A stretch of DNA of 64,000 bases from Candidatus Parcubacteria bacterium (GCA_027450205.1 DAIDJL010000005.1:251-64250); one strand, 5' to 3'; shown: positions 14,790 to 54,359, counted from the first letter of the stretch. The notes: a model not told the origin generated them from the letters alone. Made by a program: numbers and translations.

Positions 14790-14799
14790 ATGGAATTCT

Positions 14800-17492: not shown

Positions 17493-19625
<2,133 letters not shown>

Positions 19626-24283: not shown

Positions 24284-24284
24284 A

Positions 24285-24734: not shown

Positions 24735-24825
24735 CTCTTTATAGTAACAGATGCGCGGAAAACGGGGGCTGTGGATAATCGGAGATAGAAAACGCCCCTC
24801 TCGTTGTTCTGAGAGGGGCGAAGGA

Positions 24826-28061: not shown

Positions 28062-28089
28062 GGTTACATTCTATCGCATATGGGGCATT

Positions 28090-28710: not shown

Positions 28711-28731
28711 TCTATCACTTTGGCGGCATCT

Positions 28732-29589: not shown

Positions 29590-29710
29590 CCATAGTATGA
29601 TAGCAGAAAACGCCGGCCGTTACTTTAAAAATATATTGATCGTCCCGCCGGGCGCATCAAAAAACCCGCCGAAGCGGGATTTTGAGGAATGTTCCAAAAA
29701 CAGGGAATGC

Positions 29711-30187: not shown

Positions 30188-30247
30188 GTTCTTTTAGAGG
30201 GAAATCTTCTCGACCTTTTGATAATATCAACTTAATCATTATAGCAT

Positions 30248-31459
30248 TTAGTGGATGCTGTCCGTGAGGTTGTATATGGGGATAAGAATTGAGGCGAAAA
30301 GAAGGCCCACCATAAGGCCGATGCCGATCATAAGCACCGGCTGGATGAGATCCACCAGATTATTGGTGATCTCGTTCGCTTCGCGGGTATAAATGCCGGA
30401 AAGGCGCATGAACATCTCCTCTATTTTTCCCGTCGTCTCCCCCACCGCCACCATCTGGGAAACAAGGGGCGGGAAGAACTGCGGATATTTTGCGATGCTC
30501 TGGGAAAGGAGCGATCCCTGGCGCACGTCTTCCGCAATATCGTGCACGACGTCACGGTACAGCGAATTCCCCACCATGTGCCCGATGATCTCCAGCGCCT
30601 GCGCGATGGGAATGCCGCCGTGCACCAGGAGCGCCGCCGAGTTGCCGAACCGCGCCATGATCACCGGCGAATATACTTTCTTTACGATCGGCAAGCGGAT
30701 CTTCGCCTCGTCCAGCAATGCCTGGCCTTCGTCCGTCTGGGAATAATTGATGCCCAACACGCCGAGTATGATGACGGCGACGATGACGGCGATCCACCAC
30801 GCATGCAGGAAATTCCCGGTATTCAGGAGCACCTGCGTGTACCACGGAAGCGCGACACCGTTTTGCGCAAACACGCTGCCGAGCGACGGATACACGAATG
30901 TGACAAGGATGAACGCGACGATGATGAACAGCCCGATGACGATGCCCGGATAGACGAGCGCGGATGCCGCCTTGCTTGCAAGATCGCCTTCCTTTTCCGT
31001 GTAGTCGGCAAGGAACGCCGCGACCTCGTTCAGGTTGCCGGTGACCTCCGCCGCGCGGATCATTTCAATATAGTAATCGGGGAACACCTTGCCCTGCCGT
31101 GCCATCGCCTGCGAGAAAGAAATGCCCGCGTCGATGTCTTCCGTCACCTGCGAGACGGCGCCTTTAAGGGTCTGGCTTGCGGTCTGTTCAAAAAGGATCT
31201 TGAGCGCGTTATTGAGCGGCAGCCGCGCCTCAAGCAACGTCGCCAGCTGGCGCGTGAAGACGATGAGGTCCTTGCGGCTTACGCGGTTGAAAAATCCCGC
31301 GATATTATCGAATGCGGTCGGCGGACGTACGGCGACGACGCTCAGCACGAAAAGGTCATGGCTCGAGAGGATCGCGCTCGCCGCATCGCGGTCCGATGCC
31401 TCCACAAATCCGACCTGCGCCGCCCCTTCTTTTGTTTTGGCCTGATACTTGAACTTCAT
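30248..31459 (-). CDS. pilC: type IV pilus inner-membrane platform protein (GspF/PilC family)
   Basis: There are two T2SSF repeats and three TM segments, with a typical LLxxGxPLxxAL motif (403 aa). Confidence 0.85.
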   Translation of the reverse strand: MKFKYQAKTKEGAAQVGFVEASDRDAASAILSSHDLFVLSVVAVRPPTAFDNIAGFFNRVSRKDLIVFTRQLATLLEARLPLNNALKILFEQTASQTLKGAVSQVTEDIDAGISFSQAMARQGKVFPDYYIEMIRAAEVTGNLNEVAAFLADYTEKEGDLASKAASALVYPGIVIGLFIIVAFILVTFVYPSLGSVFAQNGVALPWYTQVLLNTGNFLHAWWIAVIVAVIILGVLGINYSQTDEGQALLDEAKIRLPIVKKVYSPVIMARFGNSAALLVHGGIPIAQALEIIGHMVGNSLYRDVVHDIAEDVRQGSLLSQSIAKYPQFFPPLVSQMVAVGETTGKIEEMFMRLSGIYTREANEITNNLVDLIQPVLMIGIGLMVGLLFASILIPIYNLTDSIH

Positions 31460-31472
31460 AGGAATTTCACCT

Positions 31473-32546
31473 TTAGGTTCTTTCCAGCAAGATCCTCAGC
31501 TCGGCCGGGTTCAGCGAATACAGCTCCGCATTGTCCAACGTCACCTCTTTGTTCTTTATAAGATTCACCAGCGAGCGGTTGAGCGTGACCATTCCCTCCT
31601 GCAGGCTCGTTTCAATGACGAGATCGATCTGGTAGGTCTTCCGTTCGCGGATAAGGTTGCGGATGGCGGGATTGACGATCATGATCTCCATCGCCGGAAT
31701 GCGGCCGCCGGAGATGCGCGGGAGCAACCGGATGGAAACGATCGCCACGAGCGTGGCGGCGAGCTGGGACGTCACCTGCCCCTGCTGCTCGGCCGGGAAC
31801 GAATCGATGATGCGGTCGATCGTCTGCGCCGCGGAGTTGGTGTGCAGCGTGGATACCACGAGGTGGCCCGTCTCGGACGCGGTCATGGCCGTGCCGATGG
31901 ATACCGCGTCGCGCATCTCGCCGATCATCACGACGTCGGGGTCCTGGCGCAGCACCGTGCGGAGCGCGGCATGGAAGCTCGTCGTGTCGCTCCCCACCTC
32001 CCTTTGCGAGACGATGCATTTGTCCTGCGTGAAAAGATATTCCACCGGATCCTCGATGGTAATGATATGATCGGTGCGCGTGTGGTTGATCTCGTCTACG
32101 ATAGCCGCAAGCGTAGATGACTTGCCGTGCCCGGCGGGGCCCACCACAAGGACGAATCCCTGCGAGAGCTGGGCGAAATCATGGAGCAACGGCGGAAGAT
32201 TCAGCTCCTCTATGGTTTTGATGCGCGTGGGGATAAGGCGCAACGCCGCGGCGAGGTATCCGCGCTGGAAATATACGTTCACGCGGAAGCGCGCTTTTTC
32301 CTCGAAACTGTATGCAAAGTCGATCTGCCGCTGGGTGAGCAATTTTGCCTTCTGCTCCGGCGTGAGCATCTGCGATATGATCCCTTCCGCGGAATCCGGC
32401 GTCATAACCGGTTCTTTTTGGAGCGGCACAAGCACTCCGTCAATGCGCAACGTCGGGCGGCGCCCCACCGAAAGATGGAGGTCCGACGCATTTTGTTTCG
32501 CGGTCGTCGTCAGGAGATCATCCAACTGCTGTTTATATTCGTTCAT
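31473..32546 (-). CDS. pilT: twitching-motility retraction ATPase
   Basis: Walker A is VVGPAGHGKSSTLAA. It also has the Asp box, a Walker B (TIEDPVEY) and a His box, in a 357-aa PilT-size protein. Confidence 0.8.
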   Translation of the reverse strand: MNEYKQQLDDLLTTTAKQNASDLHLSVGRRPTLRIDGVLVPLQKEPVMTPDSAEGIISQMLTPEQKAKLLTQRQIDFAYSFEEKARFRVNVYFQRGYLAAALRLIPTRIKTIEELNLPPLLHDFAQLSQGFVLVVGPAGHGKSSTLAAIVDEINHTRTDHIITIEDPVEYLFTQDKCIVSQREVGSDTTSFHAALRTVLRQDPDVVMIGEMRDAVSIGTAMTASETGHLVVSTLHTNSAAQTIDRIIDSFPAEQQGQVTSQLAATLVAIVSIRLLPRISGGRIPAMEIMIVNPAIRNLIRERKTYQIDLVIETSLQEGMVTLNRSLVNLIKNKEVTLDNAELYSLNPAELRILLERT

Positions 32547-32653
32547 ATGTTCATATTACCACAACGAGGCAGCCAGGGAGAAGTATGGTACTGGAAAGGC
32601 ACGCCGTTCTTGGCGACATTTGCGTTTCCGGCATCGTGCTTCCCTCTCTTCGC

Positions 32654-34372
32654 CTACGAGTCGTCCGTCTCTCTGATGATCTCCTCCATGGAAACCCTTC
32701 CGCGGAGCGCTTTCACGGTGCCGTCCTGGCGGAGCGTGATCATCCCCTGCTTCCGCGCCTGCGCCGTGATCTTTTGCGTCGTGGCGCCTTCGTTGATGAT
32801 CGTCTCTATCTGCGGCGTCACGAGTAAAGCCTCGTAGATCCCCGTCCGGTCAACGATGCCGCGCCCCTTGCAGGTGGCACATCCTTTGGCATGGTAGATC
32901 TTATATGGCGCGGTGTATTGCGAAACGACCTCCGCGGGAAGTCCTTCGAGCGCCGCCTTGATGACCGCCTGCATTTCCGCCGGAGCTTCTTCCGGTTTCT
33001 TGCAGTCCGGGCACAGGACGCCCACGAGGCGCTGGGCGATGATCAGGTTGAGGGACACGGGCAGAAGGAACGGTTCCACCTTAAGGTCGATGAGGCGCGG
33101 GATGACGCCCGCCGCGTTGTTCGTGTGGAGCGTGGAAAGCACGACGTGTCCGGTAAGCGCGGCCTGTACCGCAAGTCCGGCGGTCTCGCCGTCGCGGATC
33201 TCGCCAACCATGATGATATCCGGGTCCTGGCGCAGGATCTGGCGGAGTCCCGATGCAAAGTCGTATCCGATCTCCGGCCGCACCTGCGACTGATTAATGC
33301 CGGCCACAAAATACTCCACCGGATCCTCGAGCGAGACGATGTTCACGTCCTCGGTGTTCAGCGATTGCAGGAATGCATAGAGCGTCGTGGTCTTACCGGA
33401 GCCGGTAGGGCCGGTGATGAGCACCATGCCGTACGGCTTTGCGAGACCCTTCTTGATCGTCGCGCGCGTGGGGTCAAGCAAGTCGAGGTTCTCGAAGCTC
33501 TTGAGGCCGGACGTGGGATCGAGCACGCGGATCACGATCTTTTCGCCGAGCGGCGTCGGGAACGTGGCGACGCGGAAATCGATATCGCGGTCGAAAAGCT
33601 TTGCGCGGAAGCGGCCGTCCTGCGGAATACGCGTCTCGTCGATCTTAAGATTGGATATCACTTTGACGCGCGAGGTGATCGGCTGGGCAAGTTCCTGCGG
33701 CAACGACGCCACTTCCTGCAGATCGCCCTGGATGCGGAAGCGGATACGCAGCGTCTTCTGCTGCGGTTCGATATGCACATCCGACGCTTTGTTCATCACC
33801 GCTTCTTTGAATGTGTCCGCGACGATCTTGATGATCGGCGCATCCGCGCTGTCTCCGCCTTCAAGCTCGATCACCTGCTGGCCGCCCGAACCCTCCTTGA
33901 CGTTCAACGACCGCACCGCCGCCGCGACCTCCGCGCGATACGGGGAATATTTTCGCAATGCCGCCTGAAGATCTTCGTATGAAATGAGATAGACGCCGAG
34001 ATTGAAATGGTTCTGCCGCGCGATGAACTTCAGCGCATCCTGCGCTTTCGTATCGTCGGGATGCAGCATGCCGACGATAAGCAGCCCATCCTGCATGCTG
34101 ATAGGAACAGCATGATACGTCCGCGCGGTCTCCTCGGGAACGATTCCCATAAGCTGTTCGGTGAGCGCCTCCGGATCTATTTTTTTATACGGCACCTTGA
34201 GCAGCTCGCTCTTCAGCGCCGCCACCTGCTCGTCGGGAACGATCCGCTCCCTCCCGATAATGTCTTCGGGCGACTCGCCGCTTACGATCGCGTCGCGCTT
34301 AAGACGCGTCGCGATCGCGTCGGTGATCATCCCGCGCGCCTGAAGTTGCTGCAGTAGTTCGTCGCTGGTCAT
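32654..34372 (-). CDS. pilB: type IV pilus assembly ATPase (GspE/PilB family)
   Basis: Walker A is GPTGSGKTTTLYAFL. The C-terminal tetracysteine is CPDCK...CATCKG. It has an N1 domain. Confidence 0.85.
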   Translation of the reverse strand: MTSDELLQQLQARGMITDAIATRLKRDAIVSGESPEDIIGRERIVPDEQVAALKSELLKVPYKKIDPEALTEQLMGIVPEETARTYHAVPISMQDGLLIVGMLHPDDTKAQDALKFIARQNHFNLGVYLISYEDLQAALRKYSPYRAEVAAAVRSLNVKEGSGGQQVIELEGGDSADAPIIKIVADTFKEAVMNKASDVHIEPQQKTLRIRFRIQGDLQEVASLPQELAQPITSRVKVISNLKIDETRIPQDGRFRAKLFDRDIDFRVATFPTPLGEKIVIRVLDPTSGLKSFENLDLLDPTRATIKKGLAKPYGMVLITGPTGSGKTTTLYAFLQSLNTEDVNIVSLEDPVEYFVAGINQSQVRPEIGYDFASGLRQILRQDPDIIMVGEIRDGETAGLAVQAALTGHVVLSTLHTNNAAGVIPRLIDLKVEPFLLPVSLNLIIAQRLVGVLCPDCKKPEEAPAEMQAVIKAALEGLPAEVVSQYTAPYKIYHAKGCATCKGRGIVDRTGIYEALLVTPQIETIINEGATTQKITAQARKQGMITLRQDGTVKALRGRVSMEEIIRETDDS

Positions 34373-34390
34373 ACTGTATTCTATATACTA

Positions 34391-34690
34391 TTACGGTGCG
34401 ATGAACGGGTTCGGCCGCCCCACTGCCGCAGGGCCCTGCGGCGTCGGCAGCGTGACTGTGGATTTCAGCACCGCGAATGCCGGACTTTGTATCACCGTCT
34501 CCGGATGCAATGACAGCTGCGTGATGGGAGCGATGGTGCTCAGGCTGCCGGTTGAAGGGATGGCCACCAGCTCCGGCTGGGCAAAAAATACATAGTAGAT
34601 GGCGGCGCCGGCGATGCCCAAAAACACCAGCCATCCGATGACGCCCAGGAGATTCGTCTTTTTTTCCCCTTCTTCAACGATGATTGCCAT
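34391..34690 (-). CDS. small single-pass membrane protein (pilus-operon associated)
   Basis: A 99-aa protein with a TM helix (LLGVIGWLVFLGIAGAAIYYVFF), located between pilB and pilO-like genes. Confidence 0.35.
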   Translation of the reverse strand: MAIIVEEGEKKTNLLGVIGWLVFLGIAGAAIYYVFFAQPELVAIPSTGSLSTIAPITQLSLHPETVIQSPAFAVLKSTVTLPTPQGPAAVGRPNPFIAP

Positions 34691-34701
34691 AGTATTTTTT
34701 A

Positions 34702-35334
34702 TTACGGTGCCTGATAGTACGTTACGACCGTTACGGTAAAGGTGAACATGTCCTGGTTTGCCGCCTGCCCTTTCACGGTAACGGTCGCGGCGGGCTGGAG
34801 CGATGCAGCGGTGACATCCAGAATCCTGATGTTCGTCTCAAGCCCCTGGAGGAAAAGCTTGAACGCCTCGTAGCTTCCCGATCCGGTGACTTGGAATGAG
34901 ACCGTGCCGGTGGGCTTGATGACCGACCCCGCCGCCGCCGCACTCCCTATCTGGCTGCCGCTGGCAGGCGCCGGCGGCATGGCCGTCTGCAGCGCCTGGA
35001 TCGCGATCGACGTTCCCTGTATCGCAACGCCCGCATTCGCCGCAATGCCGTATATCTGCGCCAATGCCCCCGATACGTCCGGACCCACCGGCAAAGCCAA
35101 TGTCACCGCCTGGCTTGACGATGCATCGCTTTGGTACGCGGCAAGCAAGCTCTTCCCCTTACTCACGATCTGATTCTCGTTATTGTAGAGCGTCGCTTCG
35201 CTTTCTTGCTGCCCCTTGATGGTCTCAAGGTTCGCGTAGGCCGGCACGATAAATTCAAAGTAGACCACCAACGCCGCGGCAATGATAAGTGCCGCGATGA
35301 TAAGACTGGATAAGCGTTTGGTTTCTTGTTTCAT
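34702..35334 (-). CDS. PilO-like pilus assembly protein
   Basis: An N-terminal TM is followed by a coiled region and an Ala/Gly-rich periplasmic domain. Its position after the pilN-like gene supports the call. Confidence 0.4.
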   Translation of the reverse strand: MKQETKRLSSLIIAALIIAAALVVYFEFIVPAYANLETIKGQQESEATLYNNENQIVSKGKSLLAAYQSDASSSQAVTLALPVGPDVSGALAQIYGIAANAGVAIQGTSIAIQALQTAMPPAPASGSQIGSAAAAGSVIKPTGTVSFQVTGSGSYEAFKLFLQGLETNIRILDVTAASLQPAATVTVKGQAANQDMFTFTVTVVTYYQAP

Positions 35335-35338
35335 AGTA

Positions 35339-35902
35339 TTATTTGCCGGACACCCCGAATACCGAGGGGTTCATGATCAGCGTCGCGCTGAAATCCCATC
35401 CGCTGCCGGAAAGCTGCGGAGCCGTCACGTTGGATACCGTCACCGCTGAGACCTGGGGGGAATTTTCAAATATGGCAACCTGCTGGTTCACATCAGCTTC
35501 GGACTTTGCCACGCCGGAAAGCGTGATGCGGCCACCGGCCGCAAGCGTGAATGATTGATAATAGACGTTCGCCTCGGTGTTCTGTTCAAGCCATGAGAAA
35601 AACTGGGAAGTGAGCACATGGTTCTTCAACAGTGCCTGAAGGTTCGATATCTGCGAATAAAAATCTATCAGCTGGGATTGTTCGCCCGTGGAAATGGAAT
35701 TGTCCAGCGCACTCACCTTGTTTTGCGCATCGGTAAGCTGCGATTGCAGATATGGCGCATAGCCGAACGAGAGCCCGGCATAGATCACGATGGAAAGAAA
35801 AAGGATGCCGCCGGAAAAAAGCAGGGCGCCGACGGCCCACCCTTCCGTCCCGGACGACGGATCCCTGCCCAATTGTTCTATTACTTTTTCTGGAAGTGGC
35901 AT
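35339..35902 (-). CDS. PilN-like pilus assembly protein
   Basis: Single TM (GALLFSGGILFLSIVIYAGL) followed by a periplasmic domain, immediately downstream of pilM. Confidence 0.45.
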   Translation of the reverse strand: MPLPEKVIEQLGRDPSSGTEGWAVGALLFSGGILFLSIVIYAGLSFGYAPYLQSQLTDAQNKVSALDNSISTGEQSQLIDFYSQISNLQALLKNHVLTSQFFSWLEQNTEANVYYQSFTLAAGGRITLSGVAKSEADVNQQVAIFENSPQVSAVTVSNVTAPQLSGSGWDFSATLIMNPSVFGVSGK

Positions 35903-35931
35903 TGGCTGGTTGCTGATTATTGGAAACCTGG

Positions 35932-37014
35932 CTACCTGGCGAATTGCTTCATGCCGAGACCGAGCGCCACCGTCATCGGAGCTCCAAGTTCCGGAATGAA
36001 CGGACCGATCTCGTCGGGAACCTCGAACCGTGAAAAGGGCGTCGCCTTTACCACCGGAATGCCGAAATCCCTCTCAAAATATTTTTCGATACCGGACAAG
36101 TTGGCGCCGCCGCCGGCGAGGACGACGCGTTCCGTCTTTGCCGCCGTAGGAAATTGCTGGCGATAAGTATACTCCGCCTTCTTTACCTCATTAACTATAG
36201 CATCCAAAAACGGCATCATTATTGTGGATAACTCGTAGTTTGGCCCGGTGCCCAGGATCCCCCGCTGCTTCTTGAGCTCTTCGGCGCGCATGGGATTGAT
36301 CCCAAGACTCGTCGCGAGCGCCTGAGTGAGCGATGCCGCGGCAATATCGCTCTGCGCACTCCACACGAGCACGCCTTTTTCCATGAAAATGATGTTCGTG
36401 GACCTGGAGCCGATATCCACGATGGTCGTCGCGGTCGGATCGCCGGCGAAAATGCGCGCAATGGAGAGCGATTCTATCTCGAGCGCGCGCAGGCGCAATC
36501 CCGCTGCCTGGAACATATGCTGATATTTCTTTATCTGCTCCTGCGGAACGGAGATCAGCAAGATCTTCTGGTGTGCGAATCCTTTGTCATCCACGTAATC
36601 CGCGACCCTCATCCAATCGAGCGCAACCTCGCTGAGCGGCATGGGAACATATTGCTTGGCCTGGTACACGAGCGCCTTGGCAATCTCCTTTTCCTCCATG
36701 GCGGGAAAATCCACAAGCGTCATGAACACGTCGAATGGAGGCAGTGACGCGATGGCGTCCTTCGTCGTCGTGCCAAGTTCACGGATGAGCGCCTTCAACA
36801 GCGCCACCGCATCCTTTTCAAATATTTTAAGGCCGCTCGTTTGCAGCGCCTGATTGGCCCGCGTAAGATACCCGCTCGATTCAAGGAAGCCGTAATTGGT
36901 GACGCGCGGCGCCTTTTTGCCGGCTTTCACCTCCACCATCTTGATGGAGGTCGTACCGATATCAACGCCGAGATACGCATCGGTCGGGAAAAATGAAGAA
37001 AATGGGTTGTTCAT
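35932..37014 (-). CDS. pilM: type IV pilus assembly ATPase-fold protein
   Basis: The actin-like fold N-terminus is YLGVDIGTTSIKMVEVK. The size of 360 aa fits PilM. Confidence 0.75.
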   Translation of the reverse strand: MNNPFSSFFPTDAYLGVDIGTTSIKMVEVKAGKKAPRVTNYGFLESSGYLTRANQALQTSGLKIFEKDAVALLKALIRELGTTTKDAIASLPPFDVFMTLVDFPAMEEKEIAKALVYQAKQYVPMPLSEVALDWMRVADYVDDKGFAHQKILLISVPQEQIKKYQHMFQAAGLRLRALEIESLSIARIFAGDPTATTIVDIGSRSTNIIFMEKGVLVWSAQSDIAAASLTQALATSLGINPMRAEELKKQRGILGTGPNYELSTIMMPFLDAIVNEVKKAEYTYRQQFPTAAKTERVVLAGGGANLSGIEKYFERDFGIPVVKATPFSRFEVPDEIGPFIPELGAPMTVALGLGMKQFAR

Positions 37015-42225: not shown

Positions 42226-42235
42226 GGGCGCATTT

Positions 42236-44970: not shown

Positions 44971-44975
44971 TTGCC

Positions 44976-47588: not shown

Positions 47589-50500
47589 TCAGTGCTCCGC
47601 AATCCACGCCCGTGTGAGGGGGCCGAAGTAGCCGGTGGCAGGGATGCCATGGGAGGCCTGAAACTTCTCCAAGGCGAGCTTCGTGTCCATGCCGAAGTAT
47701 TCCGTCTCGTAGCCTAGGGAACCGGCATATGTGGGGACGGAGACTACTGGGAAGCCGTTGGTGTTGAGGTAGTGCTGGAGGCTACGCACCTCAGGGTCCC
47801 GCATGCCGAGGAAGAGGTTTTTCGTGAAGCTCGGGGTCCCTCCACAGAGGGAGGATGCTGATGCGGAGATCGCGATTCCTTTGGTCTCCGCCTCCGTTAC
47901 AAGGGAACAGAGGGCATTGACCAGCATGGTGAGGGTGAGGAGCGGAGAGGAGGAGGACGAGACGATCGTGGAGGAGCTCACGATAAGAAGGGCGCCGTTT
48001 CCTGAAGAGGAAGAGGATGCCGTGGAGGAGGAGGGCGCGGGGGCGAAGTAGGAGCCACCACCACCCGATGAATAGACGATGCCTCCTCCAGTTCCTCCAC
48101 CACTAGTCGCTTTGGAGCTCTTCGAAATCACATAAATATGGACCGCCGAGTCGCTAAAGGTGTCCGTGAAGACGCCGTTCGTCACAGGCACCGAGCGGCT
48201 TTCGTTGTATACTACGGCGTCGCCGGTCGGATTGGCACCGTTGATCGTAATCGTCGTCGAGAGCGGCGTACTGCTCTCGTTAACGTCGGTGAGGCGCGCA
48301 GCGAACACATAGATGTTGTTCGCATCCTCACGCACCATGACATCCACACGGTTGTCAGCGCTATCTCCGGTGCGATTCGTTGACACCGAAAGGGTCGTGC
48401 TGCTCAGGATGACGCTCGAGAAATGCTCCGTGTCCGTCACGAACTGAGAGAGGACGCTATAATCCTGCGGAGTCTCATCGGTCCATCCTGCAGGGCCCCA
48501 CCAAGAGACGCCCTTCATACCGTGGATGACCGCAAGCCATGCCTCCATGTTTACCTGCGCCGCGGTTGGACCATATCCGGAGCACGGTTGCGAACTATCG
48601 CAAAGACCAGCTTCGATGAATGCAATCCGCGGTACCAGATTGTAGGTGTAAGCCGCGATCGCGTCCCAATTGGTCACTTCGTCAGCGACCGTCCATCCGC
48701 TCGTTTGGTAAATAAATGGATAAATATCCGAGGCATACACATCAGTGAACATCGGGGTGCTGTTTGGAACGATTGAAAAATACCAACCGTTCTGGCGATC
48801 GGCTATGGGATAATAGCCCGCCAAGTTTGTGACAACTGGATGGTTGGGGTCATTCTCGTTCGTTGCCTGCGTAAGGGCAAGCATCCTACTTGGCAACACA
48901 TGCCCTGGCGTGGGACCAATATCTGGTTCATCCATCCATGTCCACATGAACAAATTCGGATTGCTGCGATCATTATTCACATAGCTGATGGTGGTAGTTA
49001 CGGCATTTGGATCGTTCGCGGCATATGTTGAGGAGGTTTGTCCGGTCCAATTCCCATCTGGACCGATAAATGGCGCTCCTACTGTGTCCATGCAGGTATT
49101 GAATTCGGTGTAGTTATACGCATAATTATTCTCCCAACAATCGCTCCATCCATAAGCGTTCACCGATGAGCTCGCAAGCCATTGATTAACCCATGCAGCG
49201 CTCCCATCGATAAAAGGAGTGACGGGGAAATAAGGCTGTCCGTTGAGGTAGATGTCATTGTTAGCGTCAATGTAGACGCCACTCGGCAGACCGTTTGTGT
49301 ACTTTGTGATTGTCCCATTGTAGACGGCTTTCTGCGTGCCGTTCGCGTTCTCCAGTTGGACCTCGAAGGAATGATTGCCCGCGGCAAGCGAACTTACGTC
49401 GACCGAGAGCCGCTCATGGTTCGTCATCGAACCGTTTTGCGTATAGACCCTGGTGCCGTCAATGCTTGCAGTGAGAATATCGGTGGGCGACTCCCCCCAC
49501 ATCGTCACGTCAATGGGGATGGCGCTTCGGTCTGCTGCATCGGGATAGCGGACGGTGATATTGGCGGTGGGTGTAGCAATCGGCGCATTTGAAAGGTCGA
49601 AGTCGTCGAAATATGCCGATCCGGTTTGCGTCCCGTCAGCATCATCGAATCCAAGGTAGACCCGCGTAAAGGGGCCAGCGATAGTTTGACCCGCTAGATA
49701 GATATCCTGCGCTCCATCGAGGATCACCGATTCGATCCCATCCCCACTCCCCGCAACCGTATGCACCTCAACAGAATGCCACGCCCCTTTCGAGACGGCA
49801 ATCGCCCCCCTATTGCCATTGCTGTCCTGAAGATAAAACGAGCCTCCACTGCAGGCCAACCATAATTGCGTGGTTCCCTCATAGATCACGACCGGATTCG
49901 TTTCGGTGTATGCAGGATCAATATAGAAGTAGAAGCGGGCATAAAGGGCCGTGGAGGTGGGTATGTTTTCGAGAAGTTTTACAGAGCCGCCACTGACAGG
50001 CAGGGTTGCTCTGAATGAATACTGGCCCGAATGGACAGTCGAAGTGGATATCGCATACTCGCCATTCAAATAGACGGCATCCGAAGTAGTGGCCGATCCC
50101 GTGCCTGACCAAGCACTGAAGTCGCCCGTTTCAAAATCATCAAAGAAAAGAATGCTGGAACTCGGCGTGGTTACCTGGATACTAGTGGAAGTGACCGATG
50201 CCAGTCCCGAGGTATCGAATGCCTGGACAGAATATGTATAGGTCGTACTTGCGGTGACGCTCGTGTCGATAAAAGTTGGAATCGACGAAGAGGCAATGCT
50301 CGAGGTAGGCGTACAGGAACCTATACATCGAAAGATAGTGTATCCCCCGAGGCCGGGACCCGAAGGATCGGTAGAGGTCGCCCATGAAAGATTGACGGTG
50401 CCCGCGTCCATTGCTGCGCCCACAACGCTCGTGGGGGTGGTAGGCGGTATGCTGTCGATCGTAACCGTCTGGGTCGAGGTTGCGCTACCACCGGGGTTTG

Positions 50501-51395
50501 TGGCGGTGAGAGTGTAGATGGTGGTACTTGTGGGGTTTACCGTGATGGAACCGGAAAGGGTGGTCGTAGATAGCGCGAATCCACCAACGTTCGCGGCGAT
50601 CCCCACGGAGGATGCGTTATTGACAGACCAGGAAAGTGTCGATGAGCCACCCGAGAGGATGAATGCTGACGAAACCGAGAAGGAAGCGATAGAGGGGACC
50701 GCGACGCTATCCGTCGCTTCAAAGGTAGCGATGCCATTGTACGCGACAGACGGCGATGACGTTGCATAAGCGGTGGCACTATAACCTCCGGCGAGACTTG
50801 CTACCTTGTATTCGAGAAGACCTGCGTTTGTAGCCGGGCCTGGCATGGCAACGAGGGTAGACCAGGTGCCAGTCGGCGCGAAGACATCATATCCATCATT
50901 AAAATGTCCGATCAGTAGCTCATCGGTGGCGGAAGTGAATACTGTCGGCGTGGAGGTTGGCGATGTTGAGGTCGCCACTTTGTCGAGTGGAATACTTGAT
51001 ATCCCAGAAAATGATGCAAAGAGACAACCTCCGGACCCGTTCGAGTTCGCTCTCGTGCATGTTATTGAATCCGGTCCAGTAGACGTAGCGATTGCATAAA
51101 ATACTTCCTGTTGCCCTCCTGAGGTTGTCGAAGAATACGGCTCCGCGACCTGGAATACACTCCCTAGACTGCTTGACGCGCCGTAAAAGGTCTGTCCCGC
51201 GCCACTTTCTATCCACACGTACATGAGATTGCCGGCGGTAGAAGTCACGTTCATCGTGCAGCTTGTGCTTCCAATGCTGCATGTTGAAGTTGCGACGAGC
51301 GAAATCGTTGCTTTCACTTGCCCGGCCATCCCGAAAAACACGTACAATAAACAACCTGTTACGAGCGCATTTATTAGGAGTCGCCGCAATGTCAT
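47589..51395 (-). CDS. giant secreted cell-surface protein with an Ig-like repeat, an FN3 domain, a putative glycoside-hydrolase-like central region and a C-terminal peptidoglycan-binding domain
   Basis: The signal is MTLRRLLINALVTGCLLYVFFGMAG. The Ig-like repeat is STLSWSVNNASSVGIAANVGGFALSTTTLSGSITVNPTSTTIYTLTATN. The FN3 is PPTTPTSVVGAAMDAGTVNLSWATSTDPSGPGLGGYTIFRCIG...TTYTYSVQAFD. The C-terminus (RSLQHYLNTNGFPVV...LALEKFQASHGIPATGYFGPLT) is PG_binding_1-like. It is paralogous to 1..2990. Confidence 0.7.
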   Translation of the reverse strand: MTLRRLLINALVTGCLLYVFFGMAGQVKATISLVATSTCSIGSTSCTMNVTSTAGNLMYVWIESGAGQTFYGASSSLGSVFQVAEPYSSTTSGGQQEVFYAIATSTGPDSITCTRANSNGSGGCLFASFSGISSIPLDKVATSTSPTSTPTVFTSATDELLIGHFNDGYDVFAPTGTWSTLVAMPGPATNAGLLEYKVASLAGGYSATAYATSSPSVAYNGIATFEATDSVAVPSIASFSVSSAFILSGGSSTLSWSVNNASSVGIAANVGGFALSTTTLSGSITVNPTSTTIYTLTATNPGGSATSTQTVTIDSIPPTTPTSVVGAAMDAGTVNLSWATSTDPSGPGLGGYTIFRCIGSCTPTSSIASSSIPTFIDTSVTASTTYTYSVQAFDTSGLASVTSTSIQVTTPSSSILFFDDFETGDFSAWSGTGSATTSDAVYLNGEYAISTSTVHSGQYSFRATLPVSGGSVKLLENIPTSTALYARFYFYIDPAYTETNPVVIYEGTTQLWLACSGGSFYLQDSNGNRGAIAVSKGAWHSVEVHTVAGSGDGIESVILDGAQDIYLAGQTIAGPFTRVYLGFDDADGTQTGSAYFDDFDLSNAPIATPTANITVRYPDAADRSAIPIDVTMWGESPTDILTASIDGTRVYTQNGSMTNHERLSVDVSSLAAGNHSFEVQLENANGTQKAVYNGTITKYTNGLPSGVYIDANNDIYLNGQPYFPVTPFIDGSAAWVNQWLASSSVNAYGWSDCWENNYAYNYTEFNTCMDTVGAPFIGPDGNWTGQTSSTYAANDPNAVTTTISYVNNDRSNPNLFMWTWMDEPDIGPTPGHVLPSRMLALTQATNENDPNHPVVTNLAGYYPIADRQNGWYFSIVPNSTPMFTDVYASDIYPFIYQTSGWTVADEVTNWDAIAAYTYNLVPRIAFIEAGLCDSSQPCSGYGPTAAQVNMEAWLAVIHGMKGVSWWGPAGWTDETPQDYSVLSQFVTDTEHFSSVILSSTTLSVSTNRTGDSADNRVDVMVREDANNIYVFAARLTDVNESSTPLSTTITINGANPTGDAVVYNESRSVPVTNGVFTDTFSDSAVHIYVISKSSKATSGGGTGGGIVYSSGGGGSYFAPAPSSSTASSSSSGNGALLIVSSSTIVSSSSSPLLTLTMLVNALCSLVTEAETKGIAISASASSLCGGTPSFTKNLFLGMRDPEVRSLQHYLNTNGFPVVSVPTYAGSLGYETEYFGMDTKLALEKFQASHGIPATGYFGPLTRAWIAEH

Positions 51396-51474
51396 TGAGG
51401 TGTGGAATAAATAATAGATATAATGGCGGAGGGTTCGAGTTACTCTGTTTTAATTATACTAAATAATATGAAAC

Positions 51475-52980
51475 CTAACGAGCACAGCGAAAGCCAATAT
51501 AATAATCAGGGCCGGAAGCTCCCCAGTTGACACTCAGCATAAAGAGTCCGCTCGTCCACCCACTGTTATAGTCGTTGCCGCGATCAAAATCCCATGTGCC
51601 CTGATTGCCACCGTTGAGATACGTCAGAAGCGCTCCCATTCCTTGTCCAGAATTCCAGCTATTCGGAGGCGCTACTTCGTTTTGGGGGACATCCGATGTC
51701 CAGTTCGATACATTGGTGAATTCGCACCAGCTCCAGGTCGCACCTCCCCCTGAACAGGAAGGCACGTTCATGGTATTCGTGGCGTCACCTTGATCCATCG
51801 TGCTTCGTTGTACGTGCTCATCCACATTTCCCGCCAAATCCCAAATGACCGAGCCATCGGAAAGTACGAGTGTGCGGCGCTGATTTTGAGCAGCAGAACC
51901 GCCGGTTCCTGTACCACCGCCTGAAGTCGGACCGTCGGTGCCTGTATATCCATCAGCATCATTCGGGCCCGCCGGAGAAACTGCATTGGGGATACCGTCG
52001 TTATGGCCGGAATACACATACCCGGAGCCGACCGATCCGCCCGACCAGTTCGCCGCCTGCCCAACTGCATTCATGGCGATCGTCATATACTCATCGTTCG
52101 TGAGAAGATGCGCACCGATGGAATCGCAGTATTGCTTTGCGGTAGGTTCGCTCACAAATCCAATGGGCCATCCACCGGGCAGTGATGAAATTTGACGACC
52201 GTTGGCAGTGCTGCATGCATAAGATGCATCGTCATACGTGTCATATCCGGAATTGTAGTCATTCAAATAATTCCCTTTACCGTCAGAACACACTGCGTCG
52301 TATTTCATCACCCAGAATGCGGGCGTCCCATACGTCGGGTTGCCGGGAACCAAGACCCAGTTCCGCCCACCCGCAATAGTCTGGCTGCTCCCGCTCCGGA
52401 ACAGATTGGGATTTGCCCCGGTGGCTGCGATCTGTTTCTGTGATTCAGGCACCGCGATCAGTTTAAAGTTCGTTCCGTCGGTCAGATACTCGTAATACAG
52501 ATTGGTCGAGGTCTGATTTGAGGGATCGACGGGCAGCGATCCCAGCGGAGACCCGCTTGATATGTTTTTGAAATCCACCGGGATCCATCCCGTGCCGTCT
52601 ACGTTCCGATACGTTGAGCTCGCCGCGCAATGGAAATATCCTCCCGAAGGGAAGCCCAGCCCCGAACAATCCGTGCCAGCGGAGCTGGTAGCGGTGGGAT
52701 CGGGGATGGAGATATATGCAACATTAGGGGTACCCAGAGAGTAAGAACTATTTCCGCTCTGGTCAGCCATATATGTCTGAATTGCATTGGTCAGAGTATT
52801 AAGGTCAGATAAGCGATTGACATCCCGTGATTGCTTCAGAAGCTCGGCGGGATTGAGGACGAGAACGACGACCACGGCAAGGATGGCGAGGATGGCGATG
52901 ACGACGAGAAGCTCGATGAGGGTGAAGGCCCTCTCGCTATTCCTCCGCTCCGCATGGTATGAAGAGGATGGTGCGGCCAT
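51475..52980 (-). CDS. type IV pilin-like protein with a C-terminal FGE-sulfatase (C-type lectin fold) domain
   Basis: The prepilin N-terminus is ERAFTLIELLVVIAILAILAVVVVLV. The first ~150 aa are paralogous to 3079..4359. The C-terminus GNDYNSGWTSGLFMLSVNWGASGPDYYIGFRCAR carries the FGE-sulfatase signature (GGSW...YIGFRCA). Confidence 0.7.
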   Translation of the reverse strand: MAAPSSSYHAERRNSERAFTLIELLVVIAILAILAVVVVLVLNPAELLKQSRDVNRLSDLNTLTNAIQTYMADQSGNSSYSLGTPNVAYISIPDPTATSSAGTDCSGLGFPSGGYFHCAASSTYRNVDGTGWIPVDFKNISSGSPLGSLPVDPSNQTSTNLYYEYLTDGTNFKLIAVPESQKQIAATGANPNLFRSGSSQTIAGGRNWVLVPGNPTYGTPAFWVMKYDAVCSDGKGNYLNDYNSGYDTYDDASYACSTANGRQISSLPGGWPIGFVSEPTAKQYCDSIGAHLLTNDEYMTIAMNAVGQAANWSGGSVGSGYVYSGHNDGIPNAVSPAGPNDADGYTGTDGPTSGGGTGTGGSAAQNQRRTLVLSDGSVIWDLAGNVDEHVQRSTMDQGDATNTMNVPSCSGGGATWSWCEFTNVSNWTSDVPQNEVAPPNSWNSGQGMGALLTYLNGGNQGTWDFDRGNDYNSGWTSGLFMLSVNWGASGPDYYIGFRCAR

Positions 52981-53063: not shown

Positions 53064-54359
53064 TCAGTTTCTAGGTAAGCCCATGCGAGCAACCACCTGA
53101 CGAAATCGCGGCTCTTCGCGAACCAAATCCCAGCGTATATCGACGTTGAGATGGATCAGCCAATCGCATCTCTGATCGAATGCTCGTTCGAGACACTGAA
53201 GCGCCTCTTCCTTCTTTCCAAGCCCAAGAAATACTAACGCCTCATTCCAAGCAGACACGTAAACGGCAGATTTGAGGTTGCGCAACTTGTTAAGGCAAGC
53301 CAACGCAGACTTTGTATCACCTTGTTTCCCGTATGCGTAGCCGAGGCTTCCGTAGGCGCCCGGTGACTCTGCGATTTCGAGCGAGCGCTTGAATTCCTTG
53401 ATCGCGGTGGATTCGTCGCCCGCCACTTCCCAAACGTAGCCGGACATCATATGGCCCACCGCAAATGGTCCAAAATCGATGAGTGCCCGTTCGGATTCGG
53501 CAAGGGCCTCTTCCGTGCGCTTGGCGAATCCAAGCATCCACGGCAGGGTGAAGACAGTCATAGGGGAACGCCAGTCCAAGTCGGCGGCCCGCCGTGCATG
53601 AGCGATCCCATCGTCGAATCGACCGCGCGCGATGTCAAAATGCGCTTGGATGAGATGCGCATATTCGTCATCTGCATTCAGTTCGAAGGCTCTTGCGAGG
53701 TCCTTCTCCGCTCCTGTCCAGTCGCGGTCGTAGGTCGCACGGGTGAGGCCGTAGATCGCGTACGCGGAGGAGAATTTCGGATAATGAACCAAGGCTTCCT
53801 GCAAGACGGCTCTTGCCCGTTGAACGCTTCGCTGAGGAAAATCGAGGCAGAATCCTGAATGTCCTTGATTGATGTAATTGATGGCGAGACACGCATAGGC
53901 GTCAGCATCAGGCCCATGCCGCAAAACCTCCTCATAGCGCTGTACGGCTGTTCGAAGTGCGGGGAGGGTAAAAACGTTCATGCGATCGAGGGCGATCGCC
54001 TTCAATCGTTCCGCTTGGCTTACCGAAGGACCGTCAACCTCGGTAACGGGAACCCCCGAAGCAAGGTGATAGCCTCGCCCGCGAGCAGTGGCTATAAATT
54101 TTCGGGGAAGCTTGCGACGAAGCTCCTTGATGACATCATCGACGGGATGGCGATTCCATTTCGCCGGAGCACGATTCCAGGGAGTGAACTCTTCCCGAAG
54201 GATCACTCCGCCTTTTCGCGCCGCGAGTTGGAGCAATACCTCGAATTCAACCCCGGTCAGCTCAACGATCACTCCGCCCATCCGTGCCTCACGCAGATGG
54301 GCGTCGAGGAATAACGGGCCGACTCTGAAAGACGGTTGCGGGTCATTCGAGAGCGTCAT
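53064..54359 (-). CDS. winged-helix (OmpR/CadC-type trans_reg_C) + TPR-repeat transcriptional regulator
   Basis: The N-terminal trans_reg_C pattern is FRVGPLFLDAHLREARMGGVIVELTGVEFEVLLQLAARKGGVILREEF...VIKELRRKL...IATARGRGYHL. The C-terminal ~280 aa have TPR-like Ala/Tyr/Gly periodicity. Confidence 0.55.
   Translation of the reverse strand: MTLSNDPQPSFRVGPLFLDAHLREARMGGVIVELTGVEFEVLLQLAARKGGVILREEFTPWNRAPAKWNRHPVDDVIKELRRKLPRKFIATARGRGYHLASGVPVTEVDGPSVSQAERLKAIALDRMNVFTLPALRTAVQRYEEVLRHGPDADAYACLAINYINQGHSGFCLDFPQRSVQRARAVLQEALVHYPKFSSAYAIYGLTRATYDRDWTGAEKDLARAFELNADDEYAHLIQAHFDIARGRFDDGIAHARRAADLDWRSPMTVFTLPWMLGFAKRTEEALAESERALIDFGPFAVGHMMSGYVWEVAGDESTAIKEFKRSLEIAESPGAYGSLGYAYGKQGDTKSALACLNKLRNLKSAVYVSAWNEALVFLGLGKKEEALQCLERAFDQRCDWLIHLNVDIRWDLVREEPRFRQVVARMGLPRN

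What the first reader, a model, noticed from the sequence alone, without database searches (positions are those of the whole stretch)
47589..52980. Copy 2 of the cassette: pilin fused to an FGE-sulfatase/C-type-lectin-fold domain + 1268-aa surface protein with PG-binding C-terminus
Seen in sequence:
- The pilin C-terminus ends ...SGWTSGLFMLSVNWGASGPDYYIGFRCAR, the hallmark ending of formylglycine-generating-enzyme/SUMF domains (C-type lectin fold).
- The downstream giant protein ends with a PG_binding_1-like module (LALEKFQASHGIPATGYFGPLT).
- It contains a central region (FIEAGLCDSSQ...MEAWLAVIHGMKGVSWWGPAGW) reminiscent of TIM-barrel glycoside hydrolases.

Inference: an FGE-type domain on a pilin is unusual. 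It more likely serves as a ligand-binding lectin module than as a sulfatase-maturation catalyst. The paired protein may be a wall-anchored glycanase.
Basis: partly seen in the sequence, partly recalled or inferred. Interest (0 to 1): 0.6.

Follow-up and report, generated by a model that had tools for sequence, protein, structure and literature searches.

The report
Retroelement-type lectin pilin beside surface glycanase
A type IV pilin whose lectin-like tail belongs to a family that relatives hypermutate with a retroelement sits here without that retroelement, next to a giant wall-anchored protein carrying a glycoside-hydrolase-like barrel; together they look like an attachment-and-digestion kit of an ultrasmall symbiotic bacterium, but the pairing is not conserved elsewhere.

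Summary
Both ORFs exist as described. The 501-aa protein is a type IV prepilin: an N_methyl motif and a pilin core, followed by a ~300-aa C-type-lectin/FGE-sulfatase-fold tail (residues ~205-501, not ~330-501). It misses the Pfam PF03781 threshold itself, but 35 of 36 relatives hit it, and its confident model matches the DGR variable protein TaqVP best, then the true FGEs.

In most relatives the gene is followed by Avd, a template repeat and a reverse transcriptase. The last ~38 codons differ from the template almost only at adenines.

The window, which covers nearly the whole 64-kb contig, has no RT, Avd or template. Its variable-region equivalent has also diverged at scaffold positions. It is most likely a DGR-orphaned pilus adhesin of fixed specificity, though remote targeting is not excluded.

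The 1268-aa neighbour is a signal-anchored modular protein. It carries Ig/FN3 domains, a jelly-roll, a clan-GH-A-like (β/α)8 barrel with an invariant Glu after β4, and a PG_binding_1 end. The barrel family is large and has no Pfam model, and its close homologues sit in exopolysaccharide biosynthesis clusters.

"Copy 2 of a cassette" holds only for the N-terminal halves of the two proteins.

The parts
51475..52980 (-). Type IV prepilin fused to a C-type-lectin/FGE-sulfatase-fold domain (501 aa)
   Evidence: ORF. N_methyl E=4e-8. AF2 model pLDDT 91.3. Family of 229 relatives.
52867..52980 (-). Class III signal peptide and N-terminal methylation motif (residues 1-38; RA|FTLIELL with Glu5)
   Evidence: PF07963 residues 13-38. 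TIGR02532.
52381..52926 (-). Pilin core: long alpha-1 helix (residues 21-74) plus a beta-sheet head (to about residue 200). Shared at 57% identity with the copy-1 pilin.
   Evidence: Model secondary structure. PDB pilin hits. tblastn to 3829-4356.
51478..52368 (-). C-type-lectin / FGE-sulfatase-fold domain (residues ~205-501), TaqVP-like
   Evidence: Foldseek: 5vf4 TaqVP E=9e-8, FGEs 1.6e-4, Mtd 1e-3. Profile hits to 5vf4 and pFGE. 35 of 36 relatives hit PF03781.
51478..51591 (-). Equivalent of the DGR variable region (last 38 codons: DFDRGNDYNSGWTSGLFMLSVNWGASGPDYYIGFRCAR). No cognate template in the window.
   Evidence: VR/TR pairs in relatives map to exactly these codons. The window region mismatches family templates at 45% of non-A positions. 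No TR found.
47589..51395 (-). 1268-aa modular surface protein (deposited model starts at Met48)
   Evidence: ORF. P0144 is identical from Met48.
51309..51395 (-). Signal peptide / membrane anchor (residues 1-29, ...GMAGQVKA|T)
   Evidence: Read from the sequence. Conserved with the copy-1 giant N-terminus. Cleavage is inferred.
50706..51308 (-). Orphan N-domain (residues ~30-230), shared only with the copy-1 giant
   Evidence: tblastn 36% identity over residues 4-410. No other homologues: the hits cover only the Ig part.
50151..50705 (-). Ig-like domain (residues ~231-312) plus FN3 (residues ~313-415)
   Evidence: PDB phmmer FN3 hits 8pn5 and 1k85. Hits with I-set/PKD domains. fn3 E=4.7e-9 in the copy-1 paralogue.
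49581..50150 (-). Jelly-roll domain (residues ~416-605; FFDDFE...SAW...FDDF), Cip1 / polysaccharide-lyase-like
   Evidence: Profile hit 3zyp Cip1 E=6e-4. PF14099 E=1.6e-4, below its threshold.
48405..49277 (-). (beta/alpha)8 barrel (residues ~707-997), clan GH-A-like. D822-E823 follow beta-4 and E928 ends beta-7.
   Evidence: AF2 pLDDT 86.4, pTM 0.90. Foldseek GH5/GH35/GH30/GH2/GH140. GH158 profile hit. Conservation across 150 representatives.
48123..48389 (-). C-terminal beta-sandwich of the hydrolase-like module (residues ~1003-1091)
   Evidence: Model strands 316-404 of the fragment. Conserved in A2.
47802..48122 (-). Ser/Gly-rich low-complexity linker (residues ~1092-1198)
   Evidence: Read from the sequence.
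47604..47801 (-). PG_binding_1 peptidoglycan-binding domain (residues 1199-1264)
   Evidence: PF01471 E=1.3e-10, above its threshold.
3079..4359 (-). Paralogous pilin (copy 1) with the same core but a Laminin_G_3 tail
1..2966 (-). Paralogous giant (copy 1, cut by the window edge): same anchor, N-domain, Ig and FN3, then a different unidentified module
26869..37014 (-). Type IV pilus machinery able to process and assemble these pilins: PilM, PilN, PilB, PilT, PilC, a 158-aa pilin, the PilD peptidase and three minor-pilin-like genes
   Evidence: Pfam hits.
53064..54359 (-). Upstream Trans_reg_C (winged-helix) + TPR protein, a possible regulator. Association is inferred from adjacency only.

Best explanation
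Pilin (51475-52980, minus). It is a type IV pilin. PilD cleaves it and the pilus machinery encoded 15-25 kb away on the same contig presents it. Its C-terminal ~300 residues form a C-type-lectin (FGE-sulfatase subtype) ligand-binding domain.

This architecture belongs to a large Patescibacteria family. In that family the last ~38 codons are the variable region of a diversity-generating retroelement, with the gene order target - avd - template repeat - RT.

The window's copy has lost, or never had, the adjacent retroelement. Its variable-region equivalent has also drifted at positions the retroelement never changes. It therefore most likely acts as a pilus-borne adhesin of fixed specificity.

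Giant (47589-51395, minus). It is exported through an N-terminal signal/anchor and held on the cell's own wall by PG_binding_1. It projects a jelly-roll plus a clan-GH-A-type (beta/alpha)8 barrel on an Ig/FN3 stalk. The barrel probably hydrolyses an extracellular polysaccharide, with E823 as acid/base and E928 as nucleophile.

Working model (inferred). The pilin binds a glycan or other surface ligand on a partner cell, PilT-driven retraction pulls the surfaces together, and the wall-anchored enzyme cuts the partner's surface polymer. A paralogous pair at the window's left edge repeats the same logic with different heads: a LamG tail on the pilin and another module on the giant.

Shown: the domain identities, the family-level DGR linkage, the absence of a DGR on this contig, and the conserved active-site-like residues.

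Inferred: filament incorporation, ligand type, catalysis, and any functional coupling between the two genes.
For: Pilin identity:
- N_methyl/TIGR02532 motifs.
- Model with an alpha-1 helix and pilin head, pLDDT 91.3.
- PilD, PilB, PilC, PilT, PilM and PilN in the window.

Lectin fold:
- Foldseek top hit TaqVP 5vf4 at E=9e-8, then the FGEs, Mtd, EgtB, PvdO and TvpA.
- Profile hits to TaqVP, including its VR, and to pFGE.
- 35 of 36 relatives hit PF03781.

DGR family:
- Avd and RVT_1 lie directly downstream in L001, L003, L004 and L086.
- RT and Avd are present in 45 of the first 84 loci and in all metagenome relatives L086-L092.
- TR/VR pairs of 113-128 nt have mismatches almost only at template adenines, for example 16/16, 15/15, 20/20 and 17/17.

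Absence in the window:
- No TR.
- No RT motif in any of the six frames.
- No RT or Avd by tblastn down to E=10 above noise.
- The window covers 64,000 of the 64,342 bp of the contig.

Divergence:
- The window's VR equivalent mismatches 14 family templates at 45% of non-A positions. DGR-linked non-cognate pairs show 25% and cognate pairs 2%.

Giant:
- PG_binding_1 E=1.3e-10.
- Barrel model pLDDT 86.4, pTM 0.90.
- Foldseek hits are all TIM-barrel glycoside hydrolases.
- GH158 profile hit E=1.2e-6, aligning DE-P with NE.
- E823 is conserved in 150/150, D822 in 143/150 and E928 in 132/152 family representatives.
- Four of four close homologues lie in polysaccharide-biosynthesis clusters, and one relative is fused to GT2.
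Against: - The window's own pilin fails the PF03781 model, so the fold assignment is indirect.
- The pilin-giant adjacency is not conserved in any related locus, so functional coupling is conjecture.
- A 300-residue tail may be hard to fit in a major-subunit lattice. The protein could be a tip or minor pilin, or only a PilD-processed surface protein.
- The acid/base Glu is preceded by Asp, not the clan GH-A Asn. The candidate nucleophile is only 87% conserved. 3D proximity of the two Glu residues was not measured.
- No CAZy family assignment could be run.
- Absence of a DGR on one contig says nothing about the rest of the genome. One relative (L008) matches the template of a DGR on another contig of the same MAG, with 14 A mismatches against 4 non-A. 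Remote targeting therefore occurs in this family.
Confidence: 0.62

Rival explanations
1. The pilin is still a live DGR target. A retroelement elsewhere in the genome, on another contig, diversifies its last ~38 codons in trans, so the organism carries a hypervariable pilus adhesin.
For: - The whole family is DGR-linked.
- At the positions that are Asn codons in family templates, the window has D, N, S, T, S, N, G, G, D, Y, Y. All are reachable from AAY by adenine mutagenesis.
- Precedent for remote targeting: L008's VR against L010's TR in the same MAG, 14 A against 4 non-A mismatches. L008 also lacks the post-VR AATCT element.
Against: - No TR, RT or Avd anywhere on the 64-kb contig.
- Scaffold (non-A) divergence from every known family template is at least 41%. 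It is at most 30% for DGR-linked copies, so a cognate TR would have to be unusually divergent.
- No near-identical copies in metagenomes were available to show VR-only variation.
Confidence: 0.25
2. The tail is a catalytic FGE/SUMF1-type enzyme (sulfatase maturation, or EgtB/PvdO-like chemistry) exported on a pilin scaffold.
For: - Relatives are auto-annotated 'SUMF1/EgtB/PvdO family nonheme iron enzyme'.
- Foldseek finds FGEs at E~1e-4.
Against: - The segment between the RG motif and GFRCAR contains no Cys in the window and none conserved in the family. From my own knowledge of human and bacterial FGE sequences, that segment holds the Cu-binding catalytic Cys pair.
- No catalytic FGE reaches significance by sequence. 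The best matches are TaqVP, pFGE and PorK/GldK, all non-catalytic.
- In relatives this very segment is randomised by a DGR, which is incompatible with a fixed active site.
Confidence: 0.03
3. The two genes are unrelated neighbours. The giant is a housekeeping wall or exopolysaccharide-processing enzyme of the cell itself, as PslG-type hydrolases are for their own polymer, and the pilin is an independent adhesin. The 'cassette' is a coincidence of duplication.
For: - The pairing is not conserved in about 90 related pilin loci.
- Close homologues of the hydrolase-like module sit in the producer's own polysaccharide-biosynthesis clusters.
- PG_binding_1 points to the cell's own wall.
Against: - The same two-gene arrangement occurs twice in this window, with paralogous N-terminal halves and swapped heads. 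That suggests the pair was duplicated as a unit.
- Only 79 bp separate the two genes on the same strand, and no terminator-like site was found in that gap.
- No polysaccharide-biosynthesis genes flank the giant here.
Confidence: 0.3
4. The barrel is a non-catalytic carbohydrate-binding or structural module.
For: - Asp replaces the canonical Asn before the acid/base Glu.
- E928 is replaced by Q, A or N in about 10% of relatives.
- Identity to any characterised GH is only 9-14%.
Against: - A constellation of polar residues is 95-100% conserved over 150 distant representatives: E823, D822, D849, D885, D890, Y892, W953, H958 and K961.
- They lie at or just after strand ends in the model, the usual position of TIM-barrel active sites.
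Confidence: 0.15

Closest known systems
DGR variable proteins with the C-type-lectin fold: TaqVP (PDB 5vf4), TvpA (2y3c), Mtd (1yu4)
   Same: Same fold. It is the best structural and best sequence-profile match. The C-terminal RGG-W...GFRC segment is the variable region. Relatives of the window's pilin have the full target-avd-TR-RT cassette with adenine-specific mismatches.
   Different: The window's copy has no TR, RT or Avd on its contig and has a diverged VR scaffold. The N-terminal partner is a type IV pilin. The DGR surveys I could read either do not describe this (PMC5758913, PMC8144416) or list it only as a scarce 'G-type pilin' domain (PMC11661182).
Formylglycine-generating enzyme / SUMF1 (Pfam PF03781) and its non-catalytic paralogue pFGE (1y4j)
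   Same: Same fold subtype and the same conserved motifs: W-V-x-VPG, YC...G-HL-T-x-E, WD-x-GN and GFRCA.
   Different: No catalytic Cys pair. The protein itself is below the Pfam threshold. It is fused to a pilin and is extracellular.
Modular type IV pilins with large C-terminal adhesive domains
   Same: Class III signal peptide, alpha-1 helix and pilin head followed by an extra binding module. The machinery is in cis.
   Different: The module here is a DGR-type C-type lectin, or LamG in the paralogue. Whether the protein is a tip, minor or major subunit is unknown. The comparison with named modular pilins rests on my general knowledge and was not tested.
Clan GH-A glycoside hydrolases with a C-terminal beta-sandwich (GH5 ManDH5 9gpg, GH158 9oro, GH35, GH30, GH2, GH140), and EPS-cluster hydrolases such as PslG
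   Same: A (beta/alpha)8 barrel followed by a beta-sandwich. One Glu follows beta-4 and one Glu ends beta-7. Close homologues are encoded in exopolysaccharide clusters, as PslG is (my own knowledge).
   Different: Only 9-14% identity and TM about 0.6. The motif is DEP instead of NEP. No Pfam family covers the barrel in the window's protein or in 9 of 10 relatives sampled; one gave a faint GH42 match. Here it is embedded in a 1268-aa protein with an orphan N-domain and PG_binding_1, and no independent second example of that full architecture was found.

Membership tests
Type IV pilin (prepilin with class III signal peptide) | N-terminal cleavage/methylation motif (G/A|F-x-x-x-E) with Glu5 | tested here: met
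   PF07963 E=4e-8 above its cut-off. TIGR02532 E=2e-6 above its cut-off. Sequence RA|FTLIELL.
Type IV pilin (prepilin with class III signal peptide) | Long N-terminal alpha-helix packed on a beta-sheet head | tested here: met
   AF2 model: helix 21-74, then strands 88-175; pLDDT >90. PDB pilin hits over residues 12-115.
Type IV pilin (prepilin with class III signal peptide) | Prepilin peptidase and assembly ATPase/platform available | tested here: met
   PilD (A24), PilB, PilT, PilC, PilM and PilN at 28732-37014.
Type IV pilin (prepilin with class III signal peptide) | Incorporation into a filament | not testable with these tools
   Needs pilus purification with MS, or cryo-EM.
FGE-sulfatase domain (Pfam PF03781) / C-type-lectin fold | Match to PF03781 above the gathering score | tested here: not met
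   No hit for the window's protein even at E<=10. 35 of 36 aligned relatives hit at E<=0.01, best 6.9e-14.
FGE-sulfatase domain (Pfam PF03781) / C-type-lectin fold | Fold similarity to solved FGE/CLec structures | tested here: met
   Foldseek probability 0.97-1.0 to 5vf4, 6xtq, 2q17, 1y1h and 1yu4.
Formylglycine-generating enzyme (catalytic) | Conserved Cu-binding Cys pair upstream of GFRCA | tested here: not met
   No Cys in residues 464-498 of the window's protein. None conserved in 105 relatives. The position of the pair in FGE is from my own knowledge; no residue-level alignment to a catalytic FGE could be obtained.
DGR variable protein (active target) | VR with a cognate template repeat differing at adenines | tested here: not met
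   No repeat of the 3' 426 nt anywhere in the window. Family TRs do not match beyond the GFRCAR codons. The feature is met in relatives.
DGR variable protein (active target) | DGR reverse transcriptase and Avd in the same element | tested here: not met
   No tblastn hits above noise and no RT motif in the 64-kb window. The rest of the genome was not available.
DGR variable protein (active target) | C-terminal CLec domain homologous to proven targets | tested here: met
   45-61% identity to proteins followed by avd-TR-RT. TaqVP is the best PDB match.
Clan GH-A glycoside hydrolase | (beta/alpha)8 barrel | tested here: met
   AF2 pTM 0.90 with eight alternating strand/helix units. Foldseek hits to GH5, GH35, GH30, GH2 and GH140.
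Clan GH-A glycoside hydrolase | Acid/base Glu after beta-4 in an N-E-P motif | tested here: inconclusive
   E823 follows strand 128-132 of the fragment, is invariant (150/150) and aligns with the NE of GH158. It is preceded by Asp (D-E-P).
Clan GH-A glycoside hydrolase | Nucleophile Glu at the end of beta-7 | tested here: inconclusive
   E928 is the last residue of strand 236-241 and is 87% conserved.
Clan GH-A glycoside hydrolase | Assignment to a CAZy family / measured activity | not testable with these tools
   No dbCAN available. Pfam finds no GH family. The best PDB sequence match, GH158, covers only 73 residues.
PG_binding_1 (PF01471) | Match above the gathering score | tested here: met
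   41.7 bits against a cut-off of 23; residues 1199-1264.

The most novel reading that the evidence does not exclude
The two cassettes in this window are a modular, pilus-based host-surface attack kit of an episymbiotic Patescibacterium, functionally analogous to a phage receptor-binding protein plus depolymerase. Each has a pilin with an exchangeable lectin head: a C-type lectin inherited from a DGR-hypermutated lineage, or LamG. Each pilin is paired with a wall-anchored stalked enzyme with an exchangeable glycan-cutting head. The DGR-derived head has been 'frozen' after selection of a useful specificity, and the GH-A-like barrel with its D-E pair founds an uncharacterised glycoside-hydrolase family recruited from bacterial exopolysaccharide clusters.
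Probability: 0.2. Interest if true: 0.7.

Novelty: new variant of a known kind. Interest (0 to 1): 0.5.

Why it matters
Patescibacteria live attached to other cells, and their type IV pili are thought to mediate that contact. What the pili recognise is largely unknown.

This work shows that a populous family of their pilins carries the very domain that DGRs hypermutate. That gives a concrete molecular candidate for variable host recognition. Large surveys had described CPR DGR targets as mostly lacking recognisable domains (PMC8144416, PMC5758913).

The window's copy is a natural 'DGR-off' comparison: same scaffold, no retroelement, and a surface glycanase-like protein downstream in place of avd-TR-RT. 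It could show what a selected, fixed specificity looks like.

The barrel belongs to a family of more than 7,000 cluster representatives (E<=1e-3) with no Pfam model in the window's protein or in nearly all relatives sampled. The family has a consistent exopolysaccharide-cluster context, which makes it a reasonable candidate for a new glycoside-hydrolase family.

None of this is demonstrated biochemically.

Tried and rejected
- Pfam and NCBIfam on the pilin itself gave only pilin motifs and no PF03781, even at E<=10.
- I searched the window for a template repeat with blastn-short, relaxed blastn and the repeat finder. I also ran a six-frame RT-motif regex and tblastn with three Avd and two RT queries down to E=10. 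Only chance-level matches turned up.
- I first read the conserved post-VR 'CGTAG..AATCT..AATCT' element, absent in the window, as a targeting signal. I downgraded it because L008, a probable remote target, lacks it too.
- The homologue search with the giant's N-terminal 314 residues found only generic Ig-like matches at about 25% coverage. The N-domain stays an orphan.
- The copy-1 giant's C-terminal module hit only antibody light chains by chance in the PDB and had no Pfam match. My impression that it is a beta-helix is unverified.
- P0144 first looked like an independent orthologue of the giant. It turned out to be the deposited, N-terminally shorter model of the same gene.
- The look-up of encoding contigs found no record for P0001 or P0144, so the source assembly and the rest of the genome could not be reached.
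- The metagenome scan for near-identical pilins, meant to reveal VR-only polymorphism, found nothing above 58% identity.
- The 2026 preprint on a novel CPR pilus describes a donor-strand-exchange system unrelated to this pilin.
- Paul et al. 2017, the primary CPR DGR survey, is not held. I cannot exclude that pilin-type targets are mentioned there.

Full report
**Observation.** The two minus-strand ORFs are present exactly as reported: 51475-52980 (501 aa) and 47589-51395 (1268 aa), 79 bp apart. The 501-aa protein has a prokaryotic N-terminal methylation motif (PF07963 E=4e-8; TIGR02532) with the cleavage context RA|FTLIELL. The 1268-aa protein ends in PG_binding_1 (E=1.3e-10, residues 1199-1264).

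**Pilin tail.** Pfam gives no FGE-sulfatase hit for this protein, even at E<=10. The tail alone (residues 195-501) nevertheless retrieves 229 relatives. Most are 470-530 aa and carry both PF07963 and PF03781, and some are named 'SUMF1/EgtB/PvdO family' in Candidatus Paceibacterota.

In a 36-sequence alignment, 35 members hit PF03781 individually, and the window's protein is the only exception. A 105-sequence alignment gave a confident AlphaFold model (pLDDT 91.3). It shows a long alpha-1 helix (residues 21-74), a pilin head, and a separate domain from about residue 205.

Foldseek against the PDB places TaqVP, a DGR variable protein from Thermus aquaticus (5vf4), first at E=9e-8. Formylglycine-generating enzymes follow at about 1e-4, then Mtd, EgtB, PvdO and TvpA. 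By sequence profile the best PDB matches are again TaqVP, including its variable region, then the non-catalytic pFGE and PorK/GldK. No catalytic FGE reaches significance.

Between the RG motif and the terminal GFRCAR, where FGE carries its catalytic Cys pair (my own knowledge), the window's protein has no Cys and the family conserves none. The domain is about 300 residues long rather than about 170.

**The family is a DGR target family.** In relatives 56-61% identical to the window's pilin, the gene is followed within about 60-120 nt by bAvd, a repeat and an RVT_1 reverse transcriptase (L001, L003, L004, L086).

In L001 the 116-nt repeat pair differs at 16 positions, and all 16 are template adenines. 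The template encodes the Asn-rich ...NWNNGSNDGPFTLNLNWNTGNTNNNVGFRCAR, which corresponds to the pilin's last ~38 codons.

I scanned 80 loci from reference genomes and 8 from metagenomes. RT and Avd are present in 45 of the first 84 loci and in all of L086-L092. Clean TR/VR pairs have 9-20 adenine mismatches and 0-4 others.

In the literature I could search, DGR surveys say that CPR targets mostly lack recognisable domains (PMC8144416, PMC5758913). One survey lists a 'G-type pilin' domain among scarce, peculiar VR-bearing domains (PMC11661182). No held paper links DGRs to type IV pilins of Patescibacteria.

**The window's copy lacks the retroelement.** The window covers 64,000 of the contig's 64,342 bp. 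It contains no repeat of the pilin's 3' end, no RT motif in any frame, and no Avd or RT similarity above noise.

Compared with 14 family templates, the window's VR equivalent (51478-51591) mismatches at 54% of template adenines. It also mismatches at 45% of non-adenine positions, with a minimum of 41%. DGR-linked copies compared with non-cognate templates show 25% at non-adenine positions, and cognate pairs show 2%. This scaffold drift probably explains the missed Pfam hit.

About a dozen other pilin-type loci also lack a local DGR. Some retain a template-like scaffold. Others (L012, L013, L036, L073) are as diverged as the window.

Remote targeting does occur in the family. L008's VR matches the template of L010, on another contig of the same MAG, with 14 adenine mismatches against 4 others. 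I therefore favour a DGR-orphaned, fixed adhesin at about 0.6-0.7, against a live remote target at about 0.25. The rest of the genome could not be reached.

**The giant.** From N to C it comprises:
- a signal peptide or anchor;
- an orphan ~200-aa domain shared only with the copy-1 paralogue;
- an Ig-like domain and an FN3 domain;
- a jelly-roll (Cip1 3zyp E=6e-4; PF14099 below threshold);
- a spacer;
- a (beta/alpha)8 barrel plus a beta-sandwich;
- a Ser/Gly-rich linker;
- PG_binding_1.

The barrel fragment was modelled with pLDDT 86.4 and pTM 0.90. Its Foldseek neighbours are all TIM-barrel glycoside hydrolases, with GH5 ManDH5 best at E=4e-12 and TM 0.61, followed by GH35, GH30, GH29, GH140 and GH2. 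Sequence identity is only 9-14%.

A family profile hits GH158 (9oro) at E=1.2e-6 over the W-x-DEPD...NDPNHPV stretch, aligning D-E with the N-E acid/base motif. GH5 mannanases and GH2 glucuronidases follow.

An exhaustive HMMER search found 7,062 cluster representatives at E<=1e-3 and 317 at E<=1e-30. Of ten sampled relatives, nine had no Pfam family on the barrel and one gave a faint GH42 match.

Over 150 representatives, E823 is invariant. D822, D849, D885, D890, Y892, W953, H958 and K961 are 95-98% conserved, H852 is 88% conserved, and E928 is 87% conserved. E823 follows beta-4 and E928 ends beta-7, the clan GH-A positions.

All four close ~700-aa homologues I examined lie inside polysaccharide-biosynthesis clusters with GT2, GT4, a Wzx flippase, a priming transferase, DegT and exosortase EpsH. 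Another relative is fused to GT2. This supports a glycan-active enzyme, and membership of clan GH-A is plausible. Membership of any CAZy family is untested.

P0144, which looked like an orthologue, is the deposited model of this same gene starting at Met48. No independent protein with the full architecture was found.

**'Cassette'.** The left edge of the window holds a paralogous pair. Its pilin (3079-4359) has the same core (57% identity over residues 15-191) but a Laminin_G_3 tail (E=4.9e-19). Its giant (1-2966) has the same anchor, N-domain, Ig and FN3 (36% identity), followed by a different, unidentified module. So the pair was duplicated as a unit and both heads were exchanged.

The pilin-giant adjacency is not seen in any of about 90 related loci. 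Only PG_binding-type fragments lie near pilins in L012, L014 and L041. A complete type IV pilus machinery lies at 26869-37014.

**Mechanism (inferred).** PilD processes the pilin, and the pilus displays its lectin head. The head's binding surface is the former variable region. PilT-driven retraction would bring a bound partner surface within reach of the wall-anchored, stalked hydrolase.

The main rivals are that the two genes are functionally unrelated (about 0.3), that the pilin is a live remote DGR target (about 0.25), that the barrel is a non-catalytic module (about 0.15), and that the tail is a catalytic FGE (about 0.03).

**Verdict.** The tail is a binding module of the FGE/C-type-lectin fold, and the neighbour is a plausible wall-anchored glycanase. 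The window's copy is the DGR-less variant. I rate it a new variant of a known kind, with interest 0.5.

Noticed in passing
L003:12576-13643 vs L004:6362-7431; also L001, L006, L007, L010, L016, L017, L018, L025, L030, L032, L091: The DGR reverse-transcriptase genes next to pilin-CLec targets contain a long (GA)n tract. L003 (intact RT) and L004 (RT split into two ORFs) differ over 1070 nt by a single GA unit. 13 of 50 RT-bearing loci have (GA)n of 8-27 units. In 11 of those 13 the RT reads in two frames, against 3 of 37 loci without a tract. This is a candidate slipped-strand ON/OFF switch for the hypermutator, or else assembly noise at a repeat.
   Followed up: partly
L008:11363-11479 vs L010 TR (~11889-12005): A pilin copy with no local template matches the template of a DGR on another contig of the same MAG, with 14 mismatches at template adenines and 4 elsewhere. 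This suggests one DGR serves two pilin paralogues remotely.
   Followed up: partly
downstream of the target stop codon in L001, L006, L007, L010, L017, L018, L024-L027, L032, L086, L087: A conserved element, 'CGTAG-nAATCT-nnAATCT', lies between the VR and avd in 13 of 14 DGR-linked loci. It is absent in the window and in L008. Its function is unknown; it could be the avd 5' region or a targeting signal.
   Followed up: partly
window 47589-51395 (-): The deposited protein for this gene (P0144, 1221 aa) starts at Met48 and lacks the signal peptide. The paralogue aligns from residue 4, so the upstream ATG at 51395 is the likelier start.
   Followed up: yes
window 44278-45467 (+): Two tandem ThsB-like TIR-domain genes (Thoeris-type; E=1.1e-6 and 6.4e-26) lie about 2 kb from the cassette. 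No ThsA was looked for.
   Followed up: no
window 59958-63963 (-): A type I restriction-modification system (HsdS, HsdM and the C-terminal part of HsdR) at the right edge, with an adjacent M78 peptidase (IrrE-like) gene at 59181-59819.
   Followed up: no
window 1-18000 vs 18000-64000: GC content steps from 0.45-0.49 to 0.53-0.60 at about 18 kb. The copy-1 cassette lies in the low-GC part. This could reflect horizontal acquisition or a chimeric assembly.
   Followed up: no
window 40543-42246 (-): A ThyX-domain protein of 567 aa whose Thy1 domain occupies only residues 337-527. The N-terminal ~330 residues are unassigned. Tmk and dCTP deaminase genes are adjacent.
   Followed up: no
window 21269-26730 (-): Two large ORFs (1004 aa and 634 aa) lie directly downstream of the minor-pilin genes of the pilus cluster, with only weak Ig-like/BACON hits. 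One shares an Ig-like segment with the giant (39% identity over 103 aa). They may be pilus-associated tip or adhesin proteins.
   Followed up: no
L016 and L026 template repeats: Two family templates carry an in-frame stop codon (LN*NT) at the position where other templates have Trp. This fits a TR that is never translated.
   Followed up: no
L095, L096, L097: In three of four polysaccharide clusters, the ~700-aa barrel protein is followed by a conserved 432-480-aa gene without any Pfam domain. It may be a polymerase or ligase partner.
   Followed up: no
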